NCBI GenBank assembly: GCA_000004985.1
Contig: GG738869.1
Direction: 5' to 3' (one strand)
Source of the DNA: Naegleria gruberi
Taxonomy: Eukaryota
Length of the DNA: 64,000 bases
Shown here piece by piece: positions 24,550 to 63,062 of the stretch. Position 1 is the first letter of the stretch. Each line of letters opens with the position of its first letter. The translations under genes were made by a program, and so were the position numbers. The notes under the pieces are model-generated. The model worked only from the letters and a program-made list of their open reading frames with translations, was not told the origin of the DNA and ran no database searches.

Positions 24550-24679
24550 TTTTTTAAATAGTGATTGGCAGGTGAAATGTACGATACAAAGTTTTAAAAG
24601 TGCTTCTTGGAATGAAGAAGGAATGGGAGTATCGTGATTAAAACTTGTAACCAATGGTTGTGCAAAGTAAAAGATTGAG

Positions 24680-24752
24680 TGGAGATGCGGGGTATCGATC
24701 CCCGTACCTCTTCCATGCTAAATAAGCGCTCTACCATGTGAGCTACATCCCC
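24680..24752 (-). tRNA. tRNA-Ala (anticodon AGC), 73 nt, no intron; one mismatch in the anticodon stem
   Basis: Reverse complement GGGGATGTAGCTCACATGGTAGAGCGCTTATTTAGCATGGAAGAGGTACGGGGATCGATACCCCGCATCTCCA. G3:U70 Ala identity pair. Anticodon loop TTAGCAT. T-arm CGGGG/CCCCG. Position 30 is A, giving A:G against position 40; the second copy at 53879 has C there. Confidence 0.8.
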
Positions 24753-46695: not shown

Positions 46696-48219
46696 ATGGC
46701 TGAATTTTCAATCATAAAATCTTCAAGACATGAAGAAAATTTCAATTCTGTTGATGTTCGGAATGGTTTCTCATCAAATCAACAACAACTTGAATGGGAA
46801 AATGTTGATAAGGTTTATCTACCACCTGAAATTCTACTCGAAATATTGCAGTTTATGGATTTTGATGCAATTGTCATGACTTCGGCAACGTGTAGGGGCT
46901 TTTATGAAGTTTCTCACGATGATGAATTGTGGAGAAAATTATTGAGTGCTGATTGGAAGTTATTGAAGGATGACGCAGCAGCAGCATTGAATAATCATCA
47001 GAATACAAATCAAAATGGTGGTAGCCTTCTGTCATCTCCAGTGGCGAACAATACAAATTCTAGTCGGGATGAGGCTGCCTCTTCTTCATCATCACCAAAT
47101 TCTTATGAATTGTTGGATCAAAATAATTCGGGTGATCTCTATGAAAAATACAAGGAACGATATTTGAGATACAAAAAGTGGAGAGATAGTATTGCTTTTA
47201 TATATTCCGAGGAGAGAAATCAATATATTAATAATGTGGAAACTCAGACAAGTGGAAAGTTTGTTGGTTATCTTAAATATTTCCTGTCCTTTCCTATACT
47301 GTTTTATAGATTATTGATCTTTTTATTTATTTCTCAGGATGAGCAACCTGATTTTGGTCTAGCTCATGAAATTGAATACATTCAAGAGAAATCATTGAGA
47401 GCTGGAGGATCCCTTCTTCTCTTAATTATATTTGCTCCAATGTTGTTCTGCACTTGGATGATTGGCGAATTACCTGCCACTCCTTTCTACGCTACTTTGC
47501 ATGTATTTTTCAAAATGGTATTCACCATTCTGTGCATTGCAGCTCATTTCTATAATCGAATGGATAGGAATATTGAATTTTACAAAGAGGCTAATAGTGT
47601 TTCTTTAGTGATTATTTTACAAACAATACTTACACTCATATTAATGAGATATGTGGATGATTTCATTATTTGCTGCCTTATTTCTTTCAACATGTCAACG
47701 GCTCTCGGATTGGCCATTTCTTTAAAGCACATGATTAAGAATACTGAAAGTATTGAGGGATTATTTGAATCCTCTAATACACCCGCTCAACACTACCTTT
47801 CCCCATTATTTGAAATTTTCAGAAATAGATCAGTTGTAACGAATTTGATTTTATCCAACTTGATGATTCTGGTTATAATGATTGGGGGATTCAAAACATT
47901 CGTTTGGATACTCATCTTTATTGCAATTGCCATAGTAACTGGAACCTCTGGAGGCTCTGGTGGCGTTGATTCCCTCGATCGTAGAATGCTCATCTTTGTT
48001 CTTGTGATCTTTGCTTGCATTTCCATTTCTGCATTAGCTACAAGTATAATCGGCGGAAATTATAAGAGAAAGAGTAAGGCGAGAAATACTAGTGCAGTGC
48101 TCTTGTTAGTGATTCTCACCATGTCATTCATTACACTTGCTATGAGAGTTATTTCCATAAAAAGTGGTGAAACTGAACGATGGCAGCTATCATTATTCGA
48201 TATTACTGATGAAGAATAA
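46696..48219 (+). CDS. F-box protein with a C-terminal multi-pass (about 7-9 TM) membrane domain, 507 aa
   Basis: LPPEILLEILQFMDFDAIVMTSATCRGFYEVSHDDELWRKLL (F-box), followed by multiple hydrophobic 20-aa segments (LFYRLLIFLFISQ.., LLLIIFAPMLFCTWMIG.., etc.). Confidence 0.6.
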   Translation: MAEFSIIKSSRHEENFNSVDVRNGFSSNQQQLEWENVDKVYLPPEILLEILQFMDFDAIVMTSATCRGFYEVSHDDELWRKLLSADWKLLKDDAAAALNNHQNTNQNGGSLLSSPVANNTNSSRDEAASSSSSPNSYELLDQNNSGDLYEKYKERYLRYKKWRDSIAFIYSEERNQYINNVETQTSGKFVGYLKYFLSFPILFYRLLIFLFISQDEQPDFGLAHEIEYIQEKSLRAGGSLLLLIIFAPMLFCTWMIGELPATPFYATLHVFFKMVFTILCIAAHFYNRMDRNIEFYKEANSVSLVIILQTILTLILMRYVDDFIICCLISFNMSTALGLAISLKHMIKNTESIEGLFESSNTPAQHYLSPLFEIFRNRSVVTNLILSNLMILVIMIGGFKTFVWILIFIAIAIVTGTSGGSGGVDSLDRRMLIFVLVIFACISISALATSIIGGNYKRKSKARNTSAVLLLVILTMSFITLAMRVISIKSGETERWQLSLFDITDEE

Positions 48220-51808: not shown

Positions 51809-52894
51809 ATGAACAACAACAATAATAGCAGGACAAGAGAAAGAGATCAAAAGACAGAAGGAGGAGGAGGATTTTGTCAGAAATGTTTCACGGAAGGCCA
51901 CTGGACATATCAATGTAAAGGAGAGAAAGCTCCATCAACAACCTACACCAAACGATTGTCCCACACTGAAAAGTTGGAAATGATGAGGAAGGGAATACCA
52001 ATTAATGAACAATTTGATTTACCTCCAGAGAGTAAAAAACCAGCAGAAATTAATGATGAAGATGCCATTTGGACTTGTAGTGATAGTGATAGTTATTTAA
52101 ATCCTGATTATTCGAGTAGTAGTGGAGATTCGAGTTATTCCTCATCATCGAGTGATGGTGGTGGTGCTTCAATGAGCAAACGTTTGAAAAAGTTAAAGAA
52201 GAAGAGAAAGACGACAAATTCTTCATCATCATCGGATTCAGCATCATCATCAGATTCGGAACAAGAACTAGTGAAGGAAACCAAGGTAGAGAATACTGTA
52301 TTGGATGAATATAAAAGAAGATTAAAGGAAGAAATTGAAAAACATGAAGGAAAATCATTAGAAACAATACAAAAAAAGGAAGAATCTGCTAAGCCATCAT
52401 CATCGTCATCATCAAGTGTAAATCGACAAGAGAGTAGCTCATCTACAAATAAGAGTAAATTGGAAAATGCACCAAAGGGAGGAGTATTAATGGCAGCTGA
52501 AAAGTTTTCAGAAGCCAAGAGAAATAATTCCAATAATGATAGAAGAGGTGGAGCTTTTGATAATAGTAGGAGAAGAGATTTTGATAGAGGTGACAGAAGG
52601 GATAATAGAACTGATAAGTATGATAGAGGTGACAGAAGGGATGATAGAAGATTGAACGATTCTAGAAGATCACCATCTTATGAACCAAGAAGTGATTCAA
52701 GAAGATCACCATCATCTTATGACAGAAGTGATAGAGGAGATAGCTATTATGGAAGAAAAAGAGATTTTGATGAATATAGAGGCAAGAAAAGTGGAGAAAA
52801 TGACAAACAGCCAGAAGGAAAATCACAAGGAGCACCTCCTCCAAGATCTTTGCATTCTGGTAACAAGTATGGACGTGTTGGAGATAAAAAATAG
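51809..52894 (+). CDS. CCHC zinc-knuckle protein with Ser-rich and RD/RS-like repeats (ZCCHC10-like), 361 aa
   Basis: CQKCFTEGHWTYQC knuckle near the N-terminus. Poly-Ser acidic tracts. C-terminal DRGDRRD/SRRSPS repeats. Confidence 0.65.
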   Translation: MNNNNNSRTRERDQKTEGGGGFCQKCFTEGHWTYQCKGEKAPSTTYTKRLSHTEKLEMMRKGIPINEQFDLPPESKKPAEINDEDAIWTCSDSDSYLNPDYSSSSGDSSYSSSSSDGGGASMSKRLKKLKKKRKTTNSSSSSDSASSSDSEQELVKETKVENTVLDEYKRRLKEEIEKHEGKSLETIQKKEESAKPSSSSSSSVNRQESSSSTNKSKLENAPKGGVLMAAEKFSEAKRNNSNNDRRGGAFDNSRRRDFDRGDRRDNRTDKYDRGDRRDDRRLNDSRRSPSYEPRSDSRRSPSSYDRSDRGDSYYGRKRDFDEYRGKKSGENDKQPEGKSQGAPPPRSLHSGNKYGRVGDKK

Positions 52895-53878: not shown

Positions 53879-53951
53879 GGGGATGTAGCTCACATGGTAG
53901 AGCGCTTCTTTAGCATGGAAGAGGTACGGGGATCGATACCCCGCATCTCCA
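53879..53951 (+). tRNA. tRNA-Ala (anticodon AGC), 73 nt, no intron
   Basis: GGGGATGTAGCTCACATGGTAGAGCGCTTCTTTAGCATGGAAGAGGTACGGGGATCGATACCCCGCATCTCCA; cloverleaf folds fully, G3:U70 present. Confidence 0.9.
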
Positions 53952-54054: not shown

Positions 54055-55647
54055 TTATTTAAATTGATCGATATTTCTAAAGCTATTCTTTTGAGGATTT
54101 TCCACCTTTTTCATCAACTTTAAATATTCAACTCTGAAAGAATCCAACATGTCAGATTTGGATTGGTTTGGGAAATTCAATGAATTCTTGAACGTTTCAT
54201 GGCAGTTGATCAATTTCTTTCCAATTTGAATTTGAGCTTCATCGAAAATATTTGTCAAATCACCTTCAGAGTCACCAATCGATATCTTAACTTGATATCT
54301 TTCAATTTCCTTCTTAATTTCTTCATGTTTCGAATACTTGACATGATTTCTGGCAAGTTCAGTATCCAAGAATTGATTATATATTTCCATTGCTTGTCTA
54401 TCTTCACTATCATTCAACTTGAACGAATTCAGTGACAATAAATCACTGGAAAATGTCAAAATCTCACTCTGTTCATCATCTTCCTGAGAAGGTGAATTAG
54501 CAGTGGAGCAATTGAGTAAACTGCTGTTGTTATTTCTCTCATTGGAAAAGTTTTTCATATCTTCCAGAATTGACTTGATAGTCGAATGTAATGATTTCTT
54601 ATGTTCCTTAAATATCTGAACTTGTTCAAGAAAGTGAAATCTATTCGAAAGTGAATCTCCCTTACAATATTCACCAAATAAGGGTCTCATAAATGGATCT
54701 GCAATTGTCTGAATGACCATAATTGCCTTGGCATGTTCCAATTTCTTAGCCGAATCATGTTCAACCTTAATAGCATGAATAAAAATCAAGACAACCAATG
54801 GAATTGCCACTGATAAACAAACTGCAATAACTGTCAAGTCAGTTGTCGTGGCAGTTTCCATCGCATTTAGCTGAATTACACTCAAATTCTTGATATCACC
54901 CACAAAATTCACATATGTATTTAGAAAAGTGTACATTCCATTGTAATGAGTTGGATTATAAAAGGCAGTCAATGCAGCTGAATAATTCTTCGCCACTACA
55001 TATTCCACAACCTGTTCCTGTAATTTAAAAAGAGGTATTTCATTCGCGTCACGTGTCAAATTTCCCAAACTAGCACTTGGCACCAATGAAAATAATCGAT
55101 TCATGGTCGAAATTAATGATTTCTTAGCAGCATAATATTCCAATGCATAACTTTCATTCCTTCCATACACTGCTATATACTCTGTCATGATCATTGTATT
55201 GTAATACTTGTAGGAATTCCCGTAATGTTGTAAAATTTCGACAAGTGGCCACTTTACAATATCATAGTTATAAATTGTTGTTATGAAAATGGCAAGAAAT
55301 GAAGCAATAATCAAGAACATTCCCAATATAGAGACAATTCTCATGCAATTGAAAGCAAAAGTTCCACAACATGATTTGACATTTACAATGGATTGAGATT
55401 TTGACGTGTTGGAGGTAGTCTTGGTTTTTGCAGAAGTTATGGAATATTTTCGTTTTAGGGTTTGAATTCTGGATTCTTGAGCGTTGATAACGGTAATGGT
55501 GCCATCATCAATTAGGACACTTTTCTTTCGAATAGGTTCATCACCTTGATTAGTTTCGGATAATGGAATGGGTGAAGTAATGGTTACACTGGTTGAGGTT
55601 GGAGAGTTGAGTCTTTCGCGAGGAGTTTCGTTGGGGAGAACTGGCAT
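54055..55647 (-). CDS. Two-TM membrane protein with a large extracytoplasmic loop and a C-terminal RGS-like domain (tentative), 530 aa
   Basis: ATG at 55647. TM1 IVSILGMFLIIASFLAIFITTIY. TM2 VIAVCLSVAIPLVVLIFIHAI. C-terminal FMRPLFGEYCKGDSLSNRFHFLEQVQIFKEHKK... follows the RGS pattern F..F...E..L.L..I..YKE. Confidence 0.6.
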   Translation of the reverse strand: MPVLPNETPRERLNSPTSTSVTITSPIPLSETNQGDEPIRKKSVLIDDGTITVINAQESRIQTLKRKYSITSAKTKTTSNTSKSQSIVNVKSCCGTFAFNCMRIVSILGMFLIIASFLAIFITTIYNYDIVKWPLVEILQHYGNSYKYYNTMIMTEYIAVYGRNESYALEYYAAKKSLISTMNRLFSLVPSASLGNLTRDANEIPLFKLQEQVVEYVVAKNYSAALTAFYNPTHYNGMYTFLNTYVNFVGDIKNLSVIQLNAMETATTTDLTVIAVCLSVAIPLVVLIFIHAIKVEHDSAKKLEHAKAIMVIQTIADPFMRPLFGEYCKGDSLSNRFHFLEQVQIFKEHKKSLHSTIKSILEDMKNFSNERNNNSSLLNCSTANSPSQEDDEQSEILTFSSDLLSLNSFKLNDSEDRQAMEIYNQFLDTELARNHVKYSKHEEIKKEIERYQVKISIGDSEGDLTNIFDEAQIQIGKKLINCHETFKNSLNFPNQSKSDMLDSFRVEYLKLMKKVENPQKNSFRNIDQFK

Positions 55648-55998
55648 TTTTTTAAGAGATTATTAATTAAGGAAGGGGACAGATGTTGAGTTTTTATTGG
55701 AAAGTAGACGAAAGATAAAATCTCTTGGAAGTACATCAATTCTCTTTGTACATTCCCCCAAGTGCATGATATGAATCATTACTTGCCTTTCGTATATTTC
55801 GGTAGAGATAGACGAAACGTAATAGGGATATTAGCTATCTCTCTCGAATATTAAAAAACAAGAGTTGTCATTGAACACTATCTGAGGTTTCCTTTTTCAT
55901 TACTATTGGAGATAAGCGCAATAAAAACAATCTCTAACAATCTTGAACTAAACCTACCGAAACGTCAACATCAATTAATTTTCAATAATTCAAAAAAA

Positions 55999-57714
55999 AT
56001 GAATTTAAATCAACATGAAATATTGGAAACCAGCATTAAGGAAGAGGTTTTTCAAAACACATCATCTAATAATCTAGTTTCGAATAATGAATCTTGGCAG
56101 GAGCAAGACCTTTCAATTGCACCAAACTTTCAACTTGGTGATACAAACGACATTCTCTCAAATACTCAACTTGATAATATTAGTAACATGGCAGACGATC
56201 TGGAAAGTCTAGAAATTCCTGAACTCGGCGACATGTCAAATGCCAGTCCCATGTTTACAAAAGTTCAACAAGAAGATGACATCAACGAAGAACCACTTGA
56301 AAACCACAATGAATCCCAACCAAACATTCGTAAAAGATACTCCCTAATCTCTCAATGGAACAAAAAGAAGGTTTCCCTTTGTTGCGGAGGAAAAATTGGA
56401 ATTGTCCCATGTTTATCCGTAATGGCAATTCTCCTCAGTATTTTAGCGCTCATTTCCATTGCCCTCCTCGTTGCCCTTCCATTCTATGAAATTAAAAAAA
56501 TACCAATTCTAGATTTAATGACAAGTCGTGCAAAATTATTTGCCTCATATATTGCCATGAGGGATATGTTAAGGTTGGGAGTTGAGAATAAGGGTAATTA
56601 TGATTCGTATTCGACCTATTATTACTATTATTACTATAAGAATAATTTTAATAATAGTTATACAAATTTTACGCATATTATTCCAACAAAGTTTAGTCAT
56701 GAATTTTTGACGAAACCTTTGGCAACTTATCCTATTTTTGTGAACTATTGGGATAAGATGGTAAAGAAGGTGGTTTCGTTTAGGGTGATAAATGGAACGA
56801 CCTATTACTCTCTCAATAAGACCATTCAAGCAGAGGCAAGAAGTCAACTTTACTCAGTTGACTATGCCACGACTTTCAATGATTTTCAAACCTCTTTCTA
56901 TGATTTACAGGACAAGCTATTCGAAATGTGCCATCATGCTGATATGCTGGTCAAGAATAGTGGAATTGCCACTTTATTTTTGGTCTGTTTCTCATTGGCA
57001 GTGATTCTTCCAACCATTCTAATAATTTTCATATTTGCATTGAGGAAAGATCGATCGAATGCAAAGAATCTTCACTCAGCCAATCGAAATATGTTGAAAG
57101 AAACCATGTCCAATCCGTCCATGAGAAGAGATTTTAGAAAGTTTTGTAAAGATTGTAAAATGGAAGGTCAATATTTGATTTTGGAAAAGATTCAATTTTA
57201 TAAGGAATTTTCATTGGAATCGTATGATGCACAAATGAATTTATTTGAATTGACTGGAGAGTATGTGAGGAAACAGAATATTAACATGAAGGAAAAGAAT
57301 TCGAGGTTGGTTTATAAGGTGGCTAAAGAGGCCGAGAAGAAATTAGTTTATTTTGAAAGGATGAAATACGAAACTATATTTGAGATTGTTGAAAATTTTC
57401 ATGAGGTGAATCAATGTTCGCACTTTTCAGCACTCTTTCAAGAAGTGAGAACAGTGTTGGATTTGTACAATAACAAGAATGATATCTTTGAGGATACAGA
57501 TCTACTGCCTTCGAAACTATTCGATAATTTAGAAAAGGAATTGAGTACAGCTCTTGCTAGAACTCATTTGCAATTCAAATCAACGAGTGGACTAAATGCT
57601 AGCAAAGCAATGTCATGCAATTCACCATCATCTCCAATTATTGTTGAGAAAACGAAGCCACTATTGGATCAATCAGTAATCTCTACTACAGAAGATCTTT
57701 CCATTCAAGTGTAA
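55999..57714 (+). CDS. Paralogous two-TM membrane protein with C-terminal RGS-like domain (tentative), about 571 aa
   Basis: ATG at 55999 (MNLNQHEILE). TM1 VMAILLSILALISIALLVALPFY. TM2 IATLFLVCFSLAVILPTILIIFIFAL. MRRDFRKFCKDCKMEGQYLILEKIQFYKEFSLESYDAQ. Same architecture as 54055..55647, transcribed divergently. Confidence 0.6.
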   Translation: MNLNQHEILETSIKEEVFQNTSSNNLVSNNESWQEQDLSIAPNFQLGDTNDILSNTQLDNISNMADDLESLEIPELGDMSNASPMFTKVQQEDDINEEPLENHNESQPNIRKRYSLISQWNKKKVSLCCGGKIGIVPCLSVMAILLSILALISIALLVALPFYEIKKIPILDLMTSRAKLFASYIAMRDMLRLGVENKGNYDSYSTYYYYYYYKNNFNNSYTNFTHIIPTKFSHEFLTKPLATYPIFVNYWDKMVKKVVSFRVINGTTYYSLNKTIQAEARSQLYSVDYATTFNDFQTSFYDLQDKLFEMCHHADMLVKNSGIATLFLVCFSLAVILPTILIIFIFALRKDRSNAKNLHSANRNMLKETMSNPSMRRDFRKFCKDCKMEGQYLILEKIQFYKEFSLESYDAQMNLFELTGEYVRKQNINMKEKNSRLVYKVAKEAEKKLVYFERMKYETIFEIVENFHEVNQCSHFSALFQEVRTVLDLYNNKNDIFEDTDLLPSKLFDNLEKELSTALARTHLQFKSTSGLNASKAMSCNSPSSPIIVEKTKPLLDQSVISTTEDLSIQV

Positions 57715-57779: not shown

Positions 57780-58667
57780 TTAAAGATTTCTTTGTCTATC
57801 AACTTGTCTGCATTGTAATTGCCAAACAGCTGGTTCAGCAGCACTACCATGAACGAATACAGGGCTCTTAGTTTCAACCAAAGAAACACCCCAACTAGTA
57901 ATTCTGCAATAACATTCACCCTTCAAAACTGGATAACCCTTACGAATACGATCAGCAATAACATAACCATCAATCATAACGAGAATATTGTAAATGAGAA
58001 CGAGAGGAATTAATGGAATACCAATAAAGAAGGCACACAATACGGCAAGAATGGTAGTCAAAACAACTGAAACAACGAGATAGATAGCACCCTTTGATTG
58101 TTGTCCAATGACAAAATGTCCCAAACCAGGGAAGACCAAATTACAGAGCAAAACAAGTGCTGGTTCAACTCCTTGAACCTTGACATAGGATTCATCAGTA
58201 ACTTGAACAGTAGTATTGGTTACAATAGGAGTAGTAGTTGGTTGAATGGTAGGTGGAAGAGTAGATGGAACATAGGTAGGTTGTTGTTGTGGAATATGAT
58301 TTACATTTGGGAGAGGAGGCAATTGAATTTGTGGTTGTCCAGATTGTTGTTGTTGTTGTTGCAATAACTGTTGTTGTTGTAAATATTGTTGATACATTTG
58401 TTGTTGTTGAAGAAACTGGGCATATTGACTTTGTGGAATGTAGGCAATTTGTTGTTGTCCATCTTGTCCCATAACCGGAACAGCATAGAAGGCTTGTTGT
58501 TGTTGTTGACCAGTAGTAGCAACATTTGGTTGTTGTTGTTGGTGAACAATTGGTTCTTGCTTTTGAGTAAAAGTTGGTTGTTGTTGTTGTGCTTCTTCTT
58601 GTTGAATTTGTTCACTGGTTGGAACGTATTCATCAGCTTCATCTTGAAGATTTTGATAACCGCTCAT
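57780..58667 (-). CDS. TM2-domain protein with Gln-rich N-terminus, about 295 aa
   Basis: ATG at 58667 (MSGYQNLQDEADEY). Long (Q)n tracts. C-terminal two-helix TM2 signature LLCNLVFPGLGHFVIGQQSKGAIYLVV...LVMIDGYVIADRIRKG. Confidence 0.6.
   Translation of the reverse strand: MSGYQNLQDEADEYVPTSEQIQQEEAQQQQPTFTQKQEPIVHQQQQPNVATTGQQQQQAFYAVPVMGQDGQQQIAYIPQSQYAQFLQQQQMYQQYLQQQQLLQQQQQQSGQPQIQLPPLPNVNHIPQQQPTYVPSTLPPTIQPTTTPIVTNTTVQVTDESYVKVQGVEPALVLLCNLVFPGLGHFVIGQQSKGAIYLVVSVVLTTILAVLCAFFIGIPLIPLVLIYNILVMIDGYVIADRIRKGYPVLKGECYCRITSWGVSLVETKSPVFVHGSAAEPAVWQLQCRQVDRQRNL
58290..58600. repeat. CAA/TTG-rich trinucleotide low-complexity tract (poly-Gln coding on the minus strand)
   Basis: ttgttgttgttgttgttgcaataactgttgttgttg...; encodes QQQQ runs in the TM2-domain protein. 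Confidence 0.7.
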
Positions 58668-59024
58668 TTTTATTATTGTATGGAAGAGTTTTGAAATCCT
58701 TTGCGGGAAATGTTTTGTTTGTGCTTTTTTTTTTGATAGGGAAATTGATGAGAAAAGTAAAATTAGCTTCAAAAAGAGTTCTAATTGGAAAAATTTTAAA
58801 ATGGAAAGGAGTTTGGTTTGATTGATGTTGAATTCGAAGTTTCTTTTCACAGAGTATTTTCTAAGGTATTAAGTACTAAGAAGTGAATGCAATGAACCTA
58901 ATCATGTGATTCAAAAAACAATCTAAGATTTGTAAAAGTAACAACTTTCTCAAACAAATGTAAAAAATCTCATACCCTTCCAACAACCTTCCAATCACTT
59001 TCTTCAATTCTTCCACAAAAAAAA

Positions 59025-61130
59025 ATGGTTCTACTTCCCTCATCGTCATCAGACAGCAATAATCAAGCAGAGAACACCACGACAGCCTGCTACGGAAAAA
59101 TCATTCAACTCTCTCATCAACTCATCACACGAGTGGAAGAGTGGAGAGATGAGTTGTTGCAACGTGTTGAAGGGCAAATGAAAATTCAGAAACAATCCAT
59201 GCACGATTCACATTATAAACCATTCGATCATGAGGAGTATGAGAGAGAAATGGCTTCAAAGGTGGTGATTCCTGGATTGGAAGATGTTTTTCATGATTTA
59301 ATGCAGAGAGTGGATGTGGCTCTTGATTTGCAACCTTGCTTTCAGGATGTTAATAATCAGGTATTGAATGATGTGGAGTGTTCTGCTCCAATGATGGAAT
59401 TTAATGAAGAAGTAATTGGAATGAACAATAATGAAATGTTGTTGACAAGTTCTGCAGAGCTTGTGTATTGTCCAGAAAATTCAAGTGTTGAAGAGTTTCT
59501 TTCAGGTTTCAGTAAATACAAAACTAAAGAAAGAAATGAAGAATTATTGAAACAAGCACTGAGTACCAAGCTATTGATTGGATCTCAAATGAGTGAGCTG
59601 GAAAACAAATACATTATCATGAGTCCATTCATGATGAATATTACCAGTTTGGAAGTATGTAATACAGGCATTGGAGTAGATGTTTCCATTTTCCTTTCGA
59701 AAAGCAAACACGTTTCCAATTTGACAAGTTTGAGATTGAGAAAATGTGGATTGGAGAGTAAGCATGCCAGAGTTCTCTCTGAAAACCCATATCTTTGCAA
59801 TTTAAAGGTTTTGGATTTGGGAGATAATGTTCATATACTGTCATCTGGTTGCAGATATATTTCAGAATCTAATAACATGCGTCAGTTGACTAGCTTGGAT
59901 ATTTCTAACAATAATATTGATAGAGATATTGAATATCTTTGTAATAGTCAAAAAATGCAGAATTTGACCAAGTTAGATCTCGAACGAAATATTGTTGGCG
60001 AAACTGCAGCCAAACACATTTCTATGAGTATTTTCTTCTATAATATGATGGAACTCAACTTGAAAAACACAGGACTCAGTGAAAAGGCATTCAAAACGAT
60101 AGTAGAGTCACCAAACATGACAAACCTTACAACTCTCGATGTCAGAAACAATTCTCTCGGATCTATTTGCTGTAAACACTTAGCAGAAAGCATGTACATG
60201 TCCAAATTGACTTCTCTGTATCTATCTCAGAATCTTATAGACTCAGATGGAATTAAATACATTGCCAATAGTCAATACATGGCAAACTTGAGAAGAATTC
60301 TCTTGCTAGAAAATAGAATTGGAGCTGAGGGTGTGAAATATCTATCTCAGAGTCCATATATGGCTAATTTGACAATGATAGGATTGGAAATGAATGGAAT
60401 TGGAAGTGATGGATGCTCTTATTTATCAAATAGTTTGTGTATTACCAATCTGACAACTATTCAGCTGTTTAAAAATAAGATTCGTCCAGAGGGTATGAAA
60501 TATTTATCAGAAAGTCCATTACTCTCTAATTGCACAACTCTTGGATTAAGAGAGAATAATATTGGTGTAGAGGGAGCTGGATATCTTTCTACGAGCCCTT
60601 ATCTTTCAAAAGTCACAACACTAGTTCTGTATGAAAATCAACTGGGAGTAGAGGGAGTTCGATTGATTGTTTCCTCTCAAAATTTCTCAAATTTGACCTC
60701 CCTTAGTTTGGAAAGTAATAATATTGGTGCTGAAGGAGCTAAATTAGTGGCAGAGAGTCCATTTATGTCTCACTTGACAACACTCTTGTTATTTGATAAC
60801 AAAATTGGACCAGAAGGTGTTAAATATTTATCTCAAAGTGCTCATCTATCAAATTTAACACATTTAGAAATGGATGGTAATGCAATCAAGAATGAGGGAC
60901 CTAAATTTATTGCCCAAAGTTCTGTATTTTCAAATTTGAGAGAGTTGAGTATTCAGAATAACTCGATTAATGTGGAAGGGCTCAAGTATATTCTTGAGAG
61001 CAAATTAATCACTCAATTACACACCTTGGATATCAGAAGTAACTCTTTTGCATCTATACTTCCATTCTCAGAAGCATCAAAACTCCTACAACAAGCCAAA
61101 CAAAAGTATTGTATCAAATTAAACAACTAA
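59025..61130 (+). CDS. Leucine-rich-repeat protein of the ribonuclease-inhibitor/NLR type (about 16 LRRs of 28-29 aa) with a 230-aa non-LRR N-terminal region, 701 aa
   Basis: Repeating unit L(T/S)xLxLxxNxIGxEGxKYLSxSPxxSN (e.g. MANLRRILLLENRIGAEGVKYLSQSPY; LTTLLLFDNKIGPEGVKYLSQSAH). No NACHT or P-loop seen. Confidence 0.75.
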   Translation: MVLLPSSSSDSNNQAENTTTACYGKIIQLSHQLITRVEEWRDELLQRVEGQMKIQKQSMHDSHYKPFDHEEYEREMASKVVIPGLEDVFHDLMQRVDVALDLQPCFQDVNNQVLNDVECSAPMMEFNEEVIGMNNNEMLLTSSAELVYCPENSSVEEFLSGFSKYKTKERNEELLKQALSTKLLIGSQMSELENKYIIMSPFMMNITSLEVCNTGIGVDVSIFLSKSKHVSNLTSLRLRKCGLESKHARVLSENPYLCNLKVLDLGDNVHILSSGCRYISESNNMRQLTSLDISNNNIDRDIEYLCNSQKMQNLTKLDLERNIVGETAAKHISMSIFFYNMMELNLKNTGLSEKAFKTIVESPNMTNLTTLDVRNNSLGSICCKHLAESMYMSKLTSLYLSQNLIDSDGIKYIANSQYMANLRRILLLENRIGAEGVKYLSQSPYMANLTMIGLEMNGIGSDGCSYLSNSLCITNLTTIQLFKNKIRPEGMKYLSESPLLSNCTTLGLRENNIGVEGAGYLSTSPYLSKVTTLVLYENQLGVEGVRLIVSSQNFSNLTSLSLESNNIGAEGAKLVAESPFMSHLTTLLLFDNKIGPEGVKYLSQSAHLSNLTHLEMDGNAIKNEGPKFIAQSSVFSNLRELSIQNNSINVEGLKYILESKLITQLHTLDIRSNSFASILPFSEASKLLQQAKQKYCIKLNN

Positions 61131-61176: not shown

Positions 61177-61249
61177 CGCCCACCGTGGGGGTCGAACCCA
61201 CGACCACAAGGTTAAGAGCCTTGCGCTCTACCGACTGAGCTAGACGGGC
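61177..61249 (-). tRNA. tRNA-Lys (anticodon CTT), 73 nt, no intron
   Basis: Reverse complement GCCCGTCTAGCTCAGTCGGTAGAGCGCAAGGCTCTTAACCTTGTGGTCGTGGGTTCGACCCCCACGGTGGGCG. Anticodon loop CTCTTAA. Highly similar to metazoan tRNA-Lys-CTT. Confidence 0.9.
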
Positions 61250-61727: not shown

Positions 61728-63062
61728 ATGAAAACAAGCCTTTTCAAGACATTATTGGGTTGTTACCAGTCTAATACAATTTTCGAGTTTGATGAATTCA
61801 TGTATCGGCCAGTTGAGTGGCTGATGATGACAAATAACAGAATAGTGGTGGCTTGTCAAGATAGAATGTTGAATTTATTTGTTTTCAAGGTCATCAAGTT
61901 TGCGGATGAGCAAGAGAAAGTAGATGGTGAAACCAAAACTGAACTAATGGATATTATTAATGGATTAGATTTTTTCAATATTCTTACAGCAGGAATTCAT
62001 CAATTAGAAAACGAGGTTGTTGCAATTACTACCTATCGTGGATTGGATTTGGGTAGGCTGAGAGCAGAAAAAATAGGGAAAGGGGAAAAGATAGCTGTCT
62101 CGTTAGTTCTAAAGATTTTATTGCAGGTTACGGCAGCCTTAAAAAGGCTTCATGAAAATGATTTGATACACAGAGATGTAAAATTGGGGAATATTTTCAT
62201 GGATAATAATAGTAATTCAGATTTGGTTGTTTTGGGCGACTATGGAGTTGCAACAAAAATTAATCATATTCAAGACTTTGAACTTTATTCTAGTGTAGGC
62301 TCTGTGGGGTATTTGCCTCCTGAGCTAGAGGTAGAAAATCATGCAAGTTTTAAATGGGATGTGTGGAGTCTTGCAATCACAATATTGAAGTTTATGTTTG
62401 GGGATGAGCAGTGTGATTTTACAAAACATTATCATTTGTTGGAATTTAATAATAACAATTCAGAAAAAAAGTTCATAACTACAGTCCATAGAGTTGAAAA
62501 ACTATTTGAGCAAAGCACCCATTGCTTAAAAGACTCACCATTATGGAAAGATGTTAAGAATGTTCTTCTTAGAATGCTATTGAGAGAACATGAACGACCA
62601 AATGTGAAACAATTATTCAATGAATTTTTTGTGGGAAAGGGGTTAGTGATTGATTATGTATTCCATAAACTCAAAACTATCTCATCCAAATCTAACGAAG
62701 AATTACTCTTAAACTTGAGAAAGGTTTTAAGTTTTAAAGAAAGTGAAGCGTTCGAAAAGGGATTGAGTTTTACCCAATTCTGGTTCATTTTAGATGTTTT
62801 GATTAAAAATCCCAAATTTGGAGGCACCTATGTGCACAAACCTTTCGAGCCCCAATTCACTACTGTCACTCCTATATTTTACAAACAAATGGATGGAGAA
62901 TGGAAATGGTCACCTGATGGCGATTATTGGATGTCATGCAGTACAGAAACAGTGATAGGAGGATATTATGATGGTCAAATGCCAGTTATGGAAAATATTC
63001 GCCTTCTTAAATGGTTGCACAATGATTATGGAGTGGCTATAGTTGATTTAGGGTTGGAATGA
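61728..63062 (+). CDS. Protein-kinase-like domain protein (atypical; possible pseudokinase), 444 aa
   Basis: Catalytic-loop HRDVKLGNIFM. DYG (a DFG variant). GSVGYLPPE (APE). DVWSLAITILKFMFG. No canonical GxGxxG loop or VAIK lysine recognised upstream. Confidence 0.6.
   Translation: MKTSLFKTLLGCYQSNTIFEFDEFMYRPVEWLMMTNNRIVVACQDRMLNLFVFKVIKFADEQEKVDGETKTELMDIINGLDFFNILTAGIHQLENEVVAITTYRGLDLGRLRAEKIGKGEKIAVSLVLKILLQVTAALKRLHENDLIHRDVKLGNIFMDNNSNSDLVVLGDYGVATKINHIQDFELYSSVGSVGYLPPELEVENHASFKWDVWSLAITILKFMFGDEQCDFTKHYHLLEFNNNNSEKKFITTVHRVEKLFEQSTHCLKDSPLWKDVKNVLLRMLLREHERPNVKQLFNEFFVGKGLVIDYVFHKLKTISSKSNEELLLNLRKVLSFKESEAFEKGLSFTQFWFILDVLIKNPKFGGTYVHKPFEPQFTTVTPIFYKQMDGEWKWSPDGDYWMSCSTETVIGGYYDGQMPVMENIRLLKWLHNDYGVAIVDLGLE

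What the first reader, a model, noticed from the sequence alone, without database searches (positions are those of the whole stretch)
54055..57714. Divergently transcribed paralog pair of two-TM proteins with RGS-like C-terminal domains
The genes at 54055-55647 (minus) and 55999-57714 (plus) share an identical architecture: a short N-terminus, TM1, a roughly 230-aa extracytoplasmic loop, TM2, and a C-terminal region with the RGS-like pattern FxxFCKDxxxExxLxLxxIxxYKE. They share about 350 bp of promoter region between them. They could be a receptor-like RGS pair, analogous to plant 7TM-RGS but with only 2 TMs. A tRNA-Ala gene sits immediately downstream of one of them.
Basis: inference. Interest (0 to 1): 0.5.

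Follow-up and report, generated by a model that had tools for sequence, protein, structure and literature searches.

The report
Paired two-helix membrane sensors with degenerate RGS domains
Two neighbouring Naegleria gruberi genes encode related membrane proteins with an outside-facing helical sensor-like domain and an inside-facing RGS-type domain that has lost the usual G-protein contact residues, and this pairing of one gene of each type recurs in related amoebae, which suggests the two proteins work together.

Summary
The window is Naegleria gruberi. Gene A (54055-55647, minus) is NAEGRDRAFT_58095, already named 'RGS domain-containing protein' by UniProt. Gene B (55999-57714, plus) is NAEGRDRAFT_67783, 'predicted protein'. 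Both have an N-in tail, TM1, an outside loop of about 140-155 aa (not 230), TM2 and a cytoplasmic RGS-type domain. They are old paralogs, about 22% identical.

- About half the family keeps 6-7 of 7 canonical G-alpha contact residues. A keeps 1 and B keeps 0, like their whole clades.
- A-type and B-type genes are adjacent in 6 of 6 loci examined, 5 of them head-to-head, and their divergence is correlated. Two canonical members examined are solitary.

Best reading: a co-expressed, probably heteromeric, chemoreceptor-like sensor with pseudo-RGS output domains. This is a new variant of the transmembrane-RGS theme. The heteromer and the loss of GAP activity are inferences.

The parts
54055..55647 (-). 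Gene A, 530 aa plus stop. It is NAEGRDRAFT_58095 / XP_002677011.1 / UniProt D2VFX8, an A-type 2TM protein with a degenerate RGS domain.
   Evidence: ORF. Identical to P0004. Family membership.
55363..55371 (-). A residues 93-95, the 'CCG' motif just before TM1 on the cytoplasmic side. The family consensus is TCCG. A role as a palmitoylation site is an inference.
   Evidence: Family consensus.
55270..55338 (-). A TM1 (residues 104-126).
   Evidence: Kyte-Doolittle peak of 2.87.
54838..55269 (-). A ectodomain (residues 127-270), with four N-x-S/T sequons. It is homologous to B's ectodomain.
   Evidence: No Pfam hit at E<=10.
54769..54837 (-). A TM2 (residues 271-293).
   Evidence: Kyte-Doolittle peak of 2.96.
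54133..54759 (-). A cytoplasmic RGS-type domain (residues 297-505). A low-complexity insert lies between the equivalents of helices 4 and 5.
   Evidence: Pfam RGS 26.3 bits against a gathering score of 23.9, E 1e-5. Keeps 1 of 7 G-alpha contact residues.
55648..55998 (.). The 351-bp interval between the two start codons, presumed to be a bidirectional promoter.
   Evidence: No k-mer is shared with the four other head-to-head intervals.
55999..57714 (+). Gene B, 571 aa plus stop. It is NAEGRDRAFT_67783 / XP_002676902.1 / UniProt D2VFX9, a B-type 2TM protein with a degenerate RGS domain.
56380..56388 (+). B residues 128-130, the 'CCG' motif before TM1.
56404..56487 (+). B TM1 (residues 136-163).
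   Evidence: Kyte-Doolittle peak of 2.98. Helix 26-58 of the model.
56488..56961 (+). B ectodomain (residues 164-321), predicted to be a four-helix bundle with a small helix and beta-hairpin insertion. It has four N-x-S/T sequons.
56962..57042 (+). B TM2 (residues 322-348). In the model it is continuous with the last ectodomain helix and with a cytoplasmic helix.
   Evidence: Model helix 178-262.
57052..57618 (+). B cytoplasmic RGS-fold domain (residues 352-540), with a long helical hairpin where RGS helices 4 and 5 lie.
53879..53951 (+). tRNA-Ala(AGC), convergent with gene A and 103 bp from its stop. Probably unrelated to the pair.

Best explanation
A and B are one A-type and one B-type member of a family of two-pass membrane proteins found so far only in Naegleria, Willaertia and unnamed environmental sequences.

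Architecture:
- a cytoplasmic, Ser/Thr-rich N-terminal tail ending in a basic stretch and a CCG motif
- TM1
- an extracellular domain of about 150 aa predicted to be a four-helix bundle
- TM2, which runs on as a cytoplasmic helix
- an RGS-fold domain carrying an insertion between helices 4 and 5

This is the topology of bacterial chemoreceptors and sensor kinases, with an RGS-type output domain.

Proposed mechanism (inferred):
- The two genes are transcribed from the shared 351-bp interval.
- The products assemble as an A/B hetero-oligomer through their helical ectodomains and TM helices.
- An extracellular cue changes the packing or position of TM2, and this is passed down the continuous helix to the RGS-type domains.
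- Both RGS domains have lost the canonical G-alpha switch-contact residues. They therefore most likely act as RGS-homology binding or scaffold modules, or as regulators of the canonical family members, not as classical GTPase-activating domains.

Shown here: homology, topology, predicted folds, loss of the contact residues, and the conserved pairing. Inferred: plasma-membrane location, ligand sensing, heteromer formation, and lack of GAP activity.
For: Identity:
- B is 100% identical to the N. gruberi protein P0002. A is identical to P0004, UniProt D2VFX8, 'RGS domain-containing protein'.

Family:
- 81 representatives at E<=1e-3, most matching the whole architecture.
- Named members come from N. 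gruberi, N. fowleri, N. lovaniensis and Willaertia magna.
- Nearly all full-length members have two hydrophobic segments, with a median spacing of 150 aa.

Topology:
- Mean K+R count per 15 residues is 1.9 before TM1, 0.86 after TM1, 1.0 before TM2 and 4.06 after TM2. Each loop has four N-x-S/T sequons.

RGS domain:
- Pfam RGS matches 47 of 81 members. A's isolated domain scores 26.3 bits, above the gathering score.
- The family profile's best hit among solved structures is EhRGS-RhoGEF, in two colinear stretches.
- The B clade aligns with the canonical clade at 100% probability, E 2.4e-40.

Ectodomain:

Degeneracy:
- The family is bimodal. 33 of 65 members keep 6-7 of 7 contact residues and 27 keep 0-2. 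A keeps 1 and B keeps 0.

Pairing:
- A-type and B-type genes are adjacent in the window, L004, L003, L005, L006 and N. fowleri L002. Five pairs are head-to-head with 112-351 bp between them.
- L002's flanks are not syntenic with the window.
- Partner distances correlate with r = 0.82, and only 1 of 720 permutations reaches that value in an exact Mantel test.
- Two canonical members have no family neighbour within 7 kb.
Against: - No direct evidence exists for heteromer formation, membrane location, a ligand, or G-alpha binding.
- The AlphaFold alignment contained canonical RGS members, which may pull B's C-terminus towards an RGS fold.
- A was not modelled successfully (single-sequence pLDDT 37).
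- The N. fowleri pair is tail-to-tail, so a shared promoter is not required for the pairing.
- Correlated divergence can arise from shared duplication history alone.
- The paired loci were chosen from the A and B clades, and only two canonical controls were examined.
- The tree is a crude neighbour-joining tree without support values.
- The contact-residue list and the RGS4 sequence were recalled from memory, although the numbering checked out.
Confidence: 0.55

Rival explanations
1. Receptor GAPs. Each protein acts alone or as a homodimer as a ligand-regulated GTPase-activating protein for self-activating Naegleria G-alpha subunits. This would be the two-TM counterpart of plant AtRGS1 and of the N. 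fowleri 7TM-RGS proteins.
For: - RGS fold and family membership.
- N. fowleri G-alpha subunits self-activate, and RGS domains of its 7TM-RGS proteins accelerate their GTP hydrolysis (PMC9283941).
- About half of this 2TM family keeps all the contact residues, so the family as a whole plausibly includes receptor GAPs.
Against: - A keeps 1 and B keeps 0 of the 7 positions equivalent to RGS4 E83, S85, E87, N88, N128, D163 and R167. The same holds for their whole clades in several species.
- B has no Pfam RGS hit at all.
Confidence: 0.2
2. The adjacency is only a relic of gene duplication. A and B function independently, and the repeated adjacency reflects segmental duplication of an old two-gene block with no functional coupling.
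For: - A second pair lies on the same 747-kb N. gruberi contig, consistent with block duplication.
- Orientation differs in N. fowleri.
- No sequence motif is shared among the head-to-head intervals.
Against: - The adjacency has persisted in 6 of 6 loci while the partners diverged to 54-84% amino-acid difference between loci and the flanks lost synteny.
- Every pair holds one A-type and one B-type gene, never A+A or B+B.
- The two canonical members checked are solitary.
Confidence: 0.15
3. Internal-membrane RGS-homology scaffold. The proteins sit in the ER or endosomal membranes, like the two-TM SNX13/14/25 sorting nexins whose RGS domain is the best RGS structural match. The loop would then be lumenal and structural, not a sensor.
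For: - The RGS domains are degenerate.
- No localisation data exist.
Against: - No PXA, PX or PXC domains were detected.
- The loop of about 150 aa is a conserved folded domain with sequons, unlike a short TM hairpin.
- Sister family members keep canonical G-alpha contacts.
Confidence: 0.1

Closest known systems
7TM-RGS receptor GAPs (Arabidopsis AtRGS1; the 28 N. fowleri 7TM-RGS proteins, PMC9283941)
   Same: - A membrane-embedded N-terminal part is followed by a cytoplasmic C-terminal RGS domain.
- They occur in the same organisms, which have self-activating G-alpha subunits.
- The logic is receptor-like: an extracellular input linked to an RGS output.
   Different: - Two TM helices flank a helical ectodomain of about 150 aa, in place of a seven-helix bundle.
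- The RGS domain carries an insertion between helices 4 and 5.
- A and B lack the G-alpha contact residues.
- The genes occur as conserved A-type plus B-type pairs.
Bacterial class I chemoreceptors and sensor histidine kinases with four-helix-bundle sensor domains (Tar, Tsr, Vc1313, PcaY, TorS, HK9, NarQ)
   Same: - The topology is N-in, TM1, an up-down helical-bundle ectodomain whose first and last helices run into TM1 and TM2, then a cytoplasmic output domain.
   Different: - No sequence or HMM similarity was found.
- The host is a eukaryote.
- The output is an RGS-fold domain, not a HAMP/MA or kinase module.
- The third-to-fourth helix connection holds an extra helix and a beta-hairpin.
- Designed bundles score similarly, so homology is unproven.
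RGS-homology domains without classical GAP function (GRK, axin, SNX13/14/25, RhoGEF rgRGS)
   Same: - They have an RGS fold with divergent or missing switch-contact residues.
- SNX13, SNX25 and axin RGS domains are among the best structural matches.
- EhRGS-RhoGEF is the best sequence-profile match among solved structures.
   Different: - None of their partner domains (kinase, PX/PXA, DH-PH, DIX) is present.
- Here the domain is tethered directly to TM2 of a two-pass protein.
Canonical-residue members of the same heterolobosean 2TM-RGS family (for example Willaertia P0022, and N. gruberi P0073, 'RGS and transmembrane domain-containing protein')
   Same: The whole architecture is shared and full-length homology is clear (hhalign 100%, E 2.4e-40).
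   Different: - They keep 6-7 of 7 G-alpha contact residues.
- The two examined are solitary genes.

Membership tests
RGS domain (Pfam PF00615) | Profile-HMM match at or above the gathering score | tested here: inconclusive
   A full-length scores 22.7 bits against 23.9. A's isolated C-terminal domain scores 26.3 bits, E 1e-5, which passes. B has no hit, full-length or isolated. B is linked only transitively: the B-clade profile aligns with family members that match PF00615 at hhalign 100%, E 2.4e-40.
RGS domain (fold) | All-helical RGS bundle that superposes on solved RGS domains | tested here: met
RGS domain (GAP-competent subclass) | Conservation of G-alpha switch-contact residues (RGS4 E83, S85, E87, N88, N128, D163, R167; list recalled from Tesmer et al. 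1997) | tested here: not met
   A keeps 1 of 7, or at most 2 if the alignment is shifted. B keeps 0 of 7. 33 of 65 family members keep 6-7.
RGS domain (GAP-competent subclass) | Acceleration of G-alpha GTP hydrolysis | not testable with these tools
   This needs a biochemical assay.
7TM-RGS (AtRGS1 type) | Seven transmembrane helices N-terminal to the RGS domain | tested here: not met
   Each protein has two hydrophobic segments only, and the B model has two membrane helices.
7TM-RGS (AtRGS1 type) | C-terminal cytoplasmic RGS domain after the last TM helix | tested here: met
Heterolobosean 2TM-ectodomain-RGS family (delimited here) | Full-length profile match over CCG motif, TM1, ectodomain of about 150 aa, TM2 and RGS | tested here: met
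Bacterial four-helix-bundle sensor domains (4HB_MCP, TarH and similar) | Up-down four-helix bundle between two TM helices | tested here: met
Bacterial four-helix-bundle sensor domains (4HB_MCP, TarH and similar) | Sequence or HMM membership | tested here: not met
   Neither ectodomain has a Pfam hit at E<=10, and the family profile finds no PDB sequence match to the ectodomain.
SNX-RGS sorting nexins (SNX13/14/25) | PXA, PX and PXC domains flanking the RGS domain | tested here: not met
   No such Pfam hits in A, B or the 81 family members.

The most novel reading that the evidence does not exclude
A-type and B-type proteins form an obligate heterodimeric, chemoreceptor-like surface sensor. Its pseudo-RGS domains do not switch G-alpha off. 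Instead they capture or scaffold G-alpha, or regulate the canonical 2TM-RGS paralogs, in response to an extracellular ligand. This would be a eukaryotic signalling module that joins a bacterial-style 2TM four-helix-bundle input to heterotrimeric G-protein circuitry, kept together by a conserved bidirectional gene pair.
Probability: 0.3. Interest if true: 0.75.

Novelty: new variant of a known kind. Interest (0 to 1): 0.55.

Why it matters
Naegleria has one of the largest RGS repertoires known. One survey counts 229 RGS proteins in N. gruberi (PMC3971589), and N. fowleri has 28 7TM-RGS proteins plus 79 other RGS proteins (PMC9283941). Its G-alpha subunits self-activate, so membrane RGS proteins are the likely points where signals enter.

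The papers I could search discuss only the 7TM-RGS class in detail. This work delimits a second receptor-like class:
- two TM helices
- a predicted four-helix-bundle ectodomain
- an RGS domain carrying an insertion

Within that class, two clades have lost the G-alpha contact residues and are inherited as A-type plus B-type gene pairs. If the pair is a heteromeric sensor with pseudo-RGS outputs, it would be a new way of wiring extracellular sensing to G-protein signalling. It would also give concrete experimental targets in both N. gruberi and the pathogen N. fowleri (FDP41_010370 and FDP41_010371).

Tried and rejected
- **Word-indexed homology searches.** Searches with A, with B and with the 81-sequence alignment returned only the queries' own clusters. 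The family was found only by the exhaustive HMMER scan.
- **PDB sequence searches with single C-terminal domains.** These gave no RGS hits, only chance matches such as FepE and a designed protein.
- **Single-sequence AlphaFold of A's C-terminal domain.** It was useless (pLDDT 37).
- **The afdb50 fold library.** It was unavailable, so I could not test by structure whether the architecture exists outside Heterolobosea.
- **Metagenome scan.** The scan that ran confirmed no locus.
- **Fetching N. gruberi contigs.** This failed for P0002, P0008 and P0023. The second N. gruberi pair was therefore shown through a metagenome contig whose A-type gene is 97.5% identical to P0011 and whose partial neighbour is 100% identical to the first 36 residues of P0008.
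- **A shared promoter motif.** No k-mer of 7-9 bases is present in at least 4 of the 5 head-to-head intervals.
- **Further paralogs in the window.** None was found.
- **The tRNA-Ala.** I treated it as an unrelated neighbour.
- **Anantharaman et al. 2011 (PMC3396428).** This is the paper most likely to have described TM-RGS architectures in Naegleria. It is not in the held library, so prior description of this family cannot be excluded.
Full report
**What is there**

The window has about 34% G+C. Gene B is 100% identical to a Naegleria gruberi protein on a 747-kb contig, so the window is N. gruberi.

- Gene A is the ORF at 54055-55647 on the minus strand, 530 aa. It is identical to NAEGRDRAFT_58095 / XP_002677011.1 / UniProt D2VFX8, which UniProt already names 'RGS domain-containing protein'.
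- Gene B is the ORF from the ATG at 55999 to 57714 on the plus strand, 571 aa. It is NAEGRDRAFT_67783 / D2VFX9, 'predicted protein'.
- The start codons are 351 bp apart.
- tRNA-Ala(AGC) lies at 53879-53951 on the plus strand, 103 bp beyond A's stop.

The stated coordinates, the divergent orientation and the neighbouring tRNA are therefore correct.

**Architecture**

Each protein has exactly two strongly hydrophobic segments. They are A 104-126 and 271-293, and B 136-163 and 322-348.

Across 64 family members the mean K+R count per 15 residues is 1.9 before TM1, 0.86 after TM1, 1.0 before TM2 and 4.06 after TM2. The median loop length is 150 aa. Each loop carries four N-x-S/T sequons. This supports an N-in, loop-out, C-in topology. 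The location in the plasma membrane is an inference.

**Paralogy**

- BLASTP finds only a 79-aa stretch, 34% identical, E 3e-13.
- Without low-complexity filtering, B110-403 aligns with A64-348 at 22.7% identity, E 3e-13.
- Profiles of A's and B's nearest relatives align with 99.6% probability, E 1.4e-23, over 277 columns. These run from a conserved CCG motif before TM1, through the ectodomain and TM2, into the first RGS helices.

A and B are therefore real but old paralogs.

**The family**

Word-indexed searches found nothing beyond the queries' own clusters. An exhaustive HMMER scan of 1.84 billion cluster representatives with the A+B profile found 81 proteins at E<=1e-3 and 72 at E<=1e-10. 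Most of them match the whole region.

Named members come from N. gruberi, N. fowleri, N. lovaniensis and Willaertia magna. The rest are unnamed metagenome or sequencing-run proteins. Nearly all full-length members show the same two hydrophobic segments. One N. gruberi member is already called 'RGS and transmembrane domain-containing protein'.

**The C-terminal domain is an RGS domain**

- Pfam RGS matches 47 of 81 members at E<=0.01, with a best E of 7.8e-12.
- A scores 22.7 bits full-length, just under the gathering score of 23.9. Its isolated domain scores 26.3 bits, E 1e-5.
- B has no direct hit.
- The family C-terminal profile's best match among solved structures is Entamoeba EhRGS-RhoGEF (E 0.0085). 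The match falls in two colinear stretches separated by an insertion of about 55 columns. RGS7, RGS10, SNX13 and GRK5 appear as weak hits.
- The B-clade profile aligns with a profile of the canonical members with 100% probability, E 2.4e-40, over 396 columns that include the entire RGS domain.
- An AlphaFold2 model of B residues 110-571, built with a 71-sequence family alignment, has mean pLDDT 88.4.
- Foldseek alone was not significant.

The insertion lies where RGS4 has its helix 4 to helix 5 loop. In the B model it corresponds to two long helices, model residues 280-317 and 323-361.

Caveats: the alignment used for modelling included canonical RGS members, and A was not modelled successfully.

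**The ectodomain**

In the model, TM1 runs into a helix. Two more long helices follow, then a short helix and a beta-hairpin. The last helix is continuous with TM2 and with about 20 cytoplasmic residues.

- PcaY, Tsr, Tar and NarQ

**Degenerate RGS domains**

I aligned 65 family C-terminal domains with the RGS4 box. The RGS4 sequence and the contact-residue list were recalled from memory, and the numbering of the seven residues checked out. I then scored the positions equivalent to E83, S85, E87, N88, N128, D163 and R167.

The distribution is bimodal. 33 members keep 6-7 of 7 positions and 27 keep 0-2. A keeps 1 and B keeps 0, as do their nearest relatives from several species.

A crude neighbour-joining tree places A and B in two separate degenerate clades, here called A-type and B-type. 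Both are distinct from a large canonical clade. The classical GAP mechanism is therefore unlikely for this pair, although it is plausible for the canonical relatives.

**Conserved pairing**

Every A-type or B-type gene for which I could fetch flanking DNA sits next to a gene of the other type.

| Locus | Source | A-type gene | B-type gene | Orientation | Spacer |
|---|---|---|---|---|---|
| window | N. gruberi | A | B | head-to-head | 351 bp |
| L004 | ENA metagenome ERZ929261 | 97.5% identical to NAEGRDRAFT_49220 (P0011) | partial gene, 100% identical to the first 36 residues of NAEGRDRAFT_67794 (P0008) | head-to-head | 112 bp |
| L003 | ENA metagenome ERZ27315067 | P0065 | P0009 | head-to-head | about 290 bp |
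| L005 | ENA metagenome ERZ27315067 | P0012 | neighbour, best match P0017 | head-to-head | 342 bp |
| L006 | JGI metagenome 3300002220 | neighbour, best match P0023 | P0013 | head-to-head | 250 bp |
| L002 | N. fowleri | FDP41_010370 (P0016) | FDP41_010371 (P0007) | tail-to-tail | about 295 bp |

- Both proteins of the L004 pair are recorded on the same 747-kb N. gruberi contig as the window.
- The N. fowleri flanks share nothing with the window.
- Across the six pairs, the distances among A-type partners correlate with those among B-type partners (r = 0.82). Only 1 of 720 label permutations reaches that value.
- Two canonical members, Willaertia P0022 and N. lovaniensis P0063, have no family neighbour within 7 kb.
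- No k-mer is shared among the five head-to-head intervals.

**Interpretation**

The best-supported reading is that A and B are the two subunit types of a co-inherited, usually co-transcribed, chemoreceptor-like membrane sensor. Its RGS-fold domains have become RGS-homology (pseudo-GAP) modules.

- Shown: homology, topology, predicted folds, residue loss and pairing.
- Inferred: heteromer formation, ligand sensing, and scaffold or regulatory output.

Rival readings are classical receptor GAPs (weakened by the residue loss), accidental persistence of a duplicated block (weakened by the 6 of 6 A+B composition and the loss of flank synteny), and an internal-membrane scaffold like the SNX-RGS proteins (no PX or PXA domains).

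**Comparison with what is known**

Transmembrane RGS proteins are known. Examples are AtRGS1 and the 28 N. fowleri 7TM-RGS proteins, four of whose RGS domains were tested and accelerated GTP hydrolysis on N. fowleri G-alpha subunits (PMC9283941). TM-containing RGS proteins have been counted across eukaryotes, and N. gruberi has 229 RGS proteins in that survey (PMC3971589). A is already annotated as an RGS protein.

I found no description in the held literature of the following:
- the 2TM, four-helix-bundle, RGS architecture as a family
- the split into canonical and degenerate clades
- the conserved A/B pairing

The most relevant paper, Anantharaman et al. 2011, could not be read. I therefore rate this a new variant of a known kind, with moderate interest.

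Noticed in passing
L008 10755-14624 (-), N. lovaniensis PYSW02000001.1: A 1242-aa gene with OrfB_IS605 (weak) and Cas12f1-like TNB Pfam hits lies just downstream of the canonical 2TM-RGS gene P0063. It is a TnpB/Fanzor-like nuclease gene in a eukaryotic genome.
   Followed up: no
window 24679-24752 (-) and 53879-53951 (+): There are two tRNA-Ala(AGC) genes 29 kb apart that differ at a single base in the anticodon stem region (A versus C at position 30). A tRNA-Lys(CTT) lies at 61177-61249 (-).
   Followed up: partly
P0003 (NAEGRDRAFT_76378, on a 47.6-kb N. gruberi contig); L001: A 167-aa protein in the same 90%-identity cluster as gene A, covering part of its C-terminal region, is annotated on a different N. 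gruberi contig. It shares the L404F and L406M substitutions seen in the metagenome copy P0001 (L001). This suggests a second haplotype or a partial duplicate of gene A.
   Followed up: partly
window 57780-58850 (-): The gene just downstream of B encodes a Gln-rich protein with hydrophobic C-terminal segments and no Pfam hit. Its function is unknown.
   Followed up: partly
window 59025-61130 (+), 61728-63062 (+), 46696-48219 (+), 51809-52894 (+): The neighbourhood is rich in signalling-type genes: an RNI-like LRR_6 protein of 701 aa, a protein kinase, an F-box protein and a CCHC zinc-knuckle protein with long Ser/Arg-rich low-complexity tails.
   Followed up: partly
family consensus; A residues 93-95 (window 55363-55371), B residues 128-130 (window 56380-56388): A conserved T-C-C-G motif lies a few residues before TM1 on the predicted cytoplasmic side in most family members. 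It may be a dual palmitoylation site.
   Followed up: no
A-type C-termini (for example A residues about 497-505, window 54133-54159): A-type proteins, but not B-type, share a short motif (M/L)L..(F/Y)R a few residues after the RGS domain. It could be a type-specific interaction or sorting signal.
   Followed up: no
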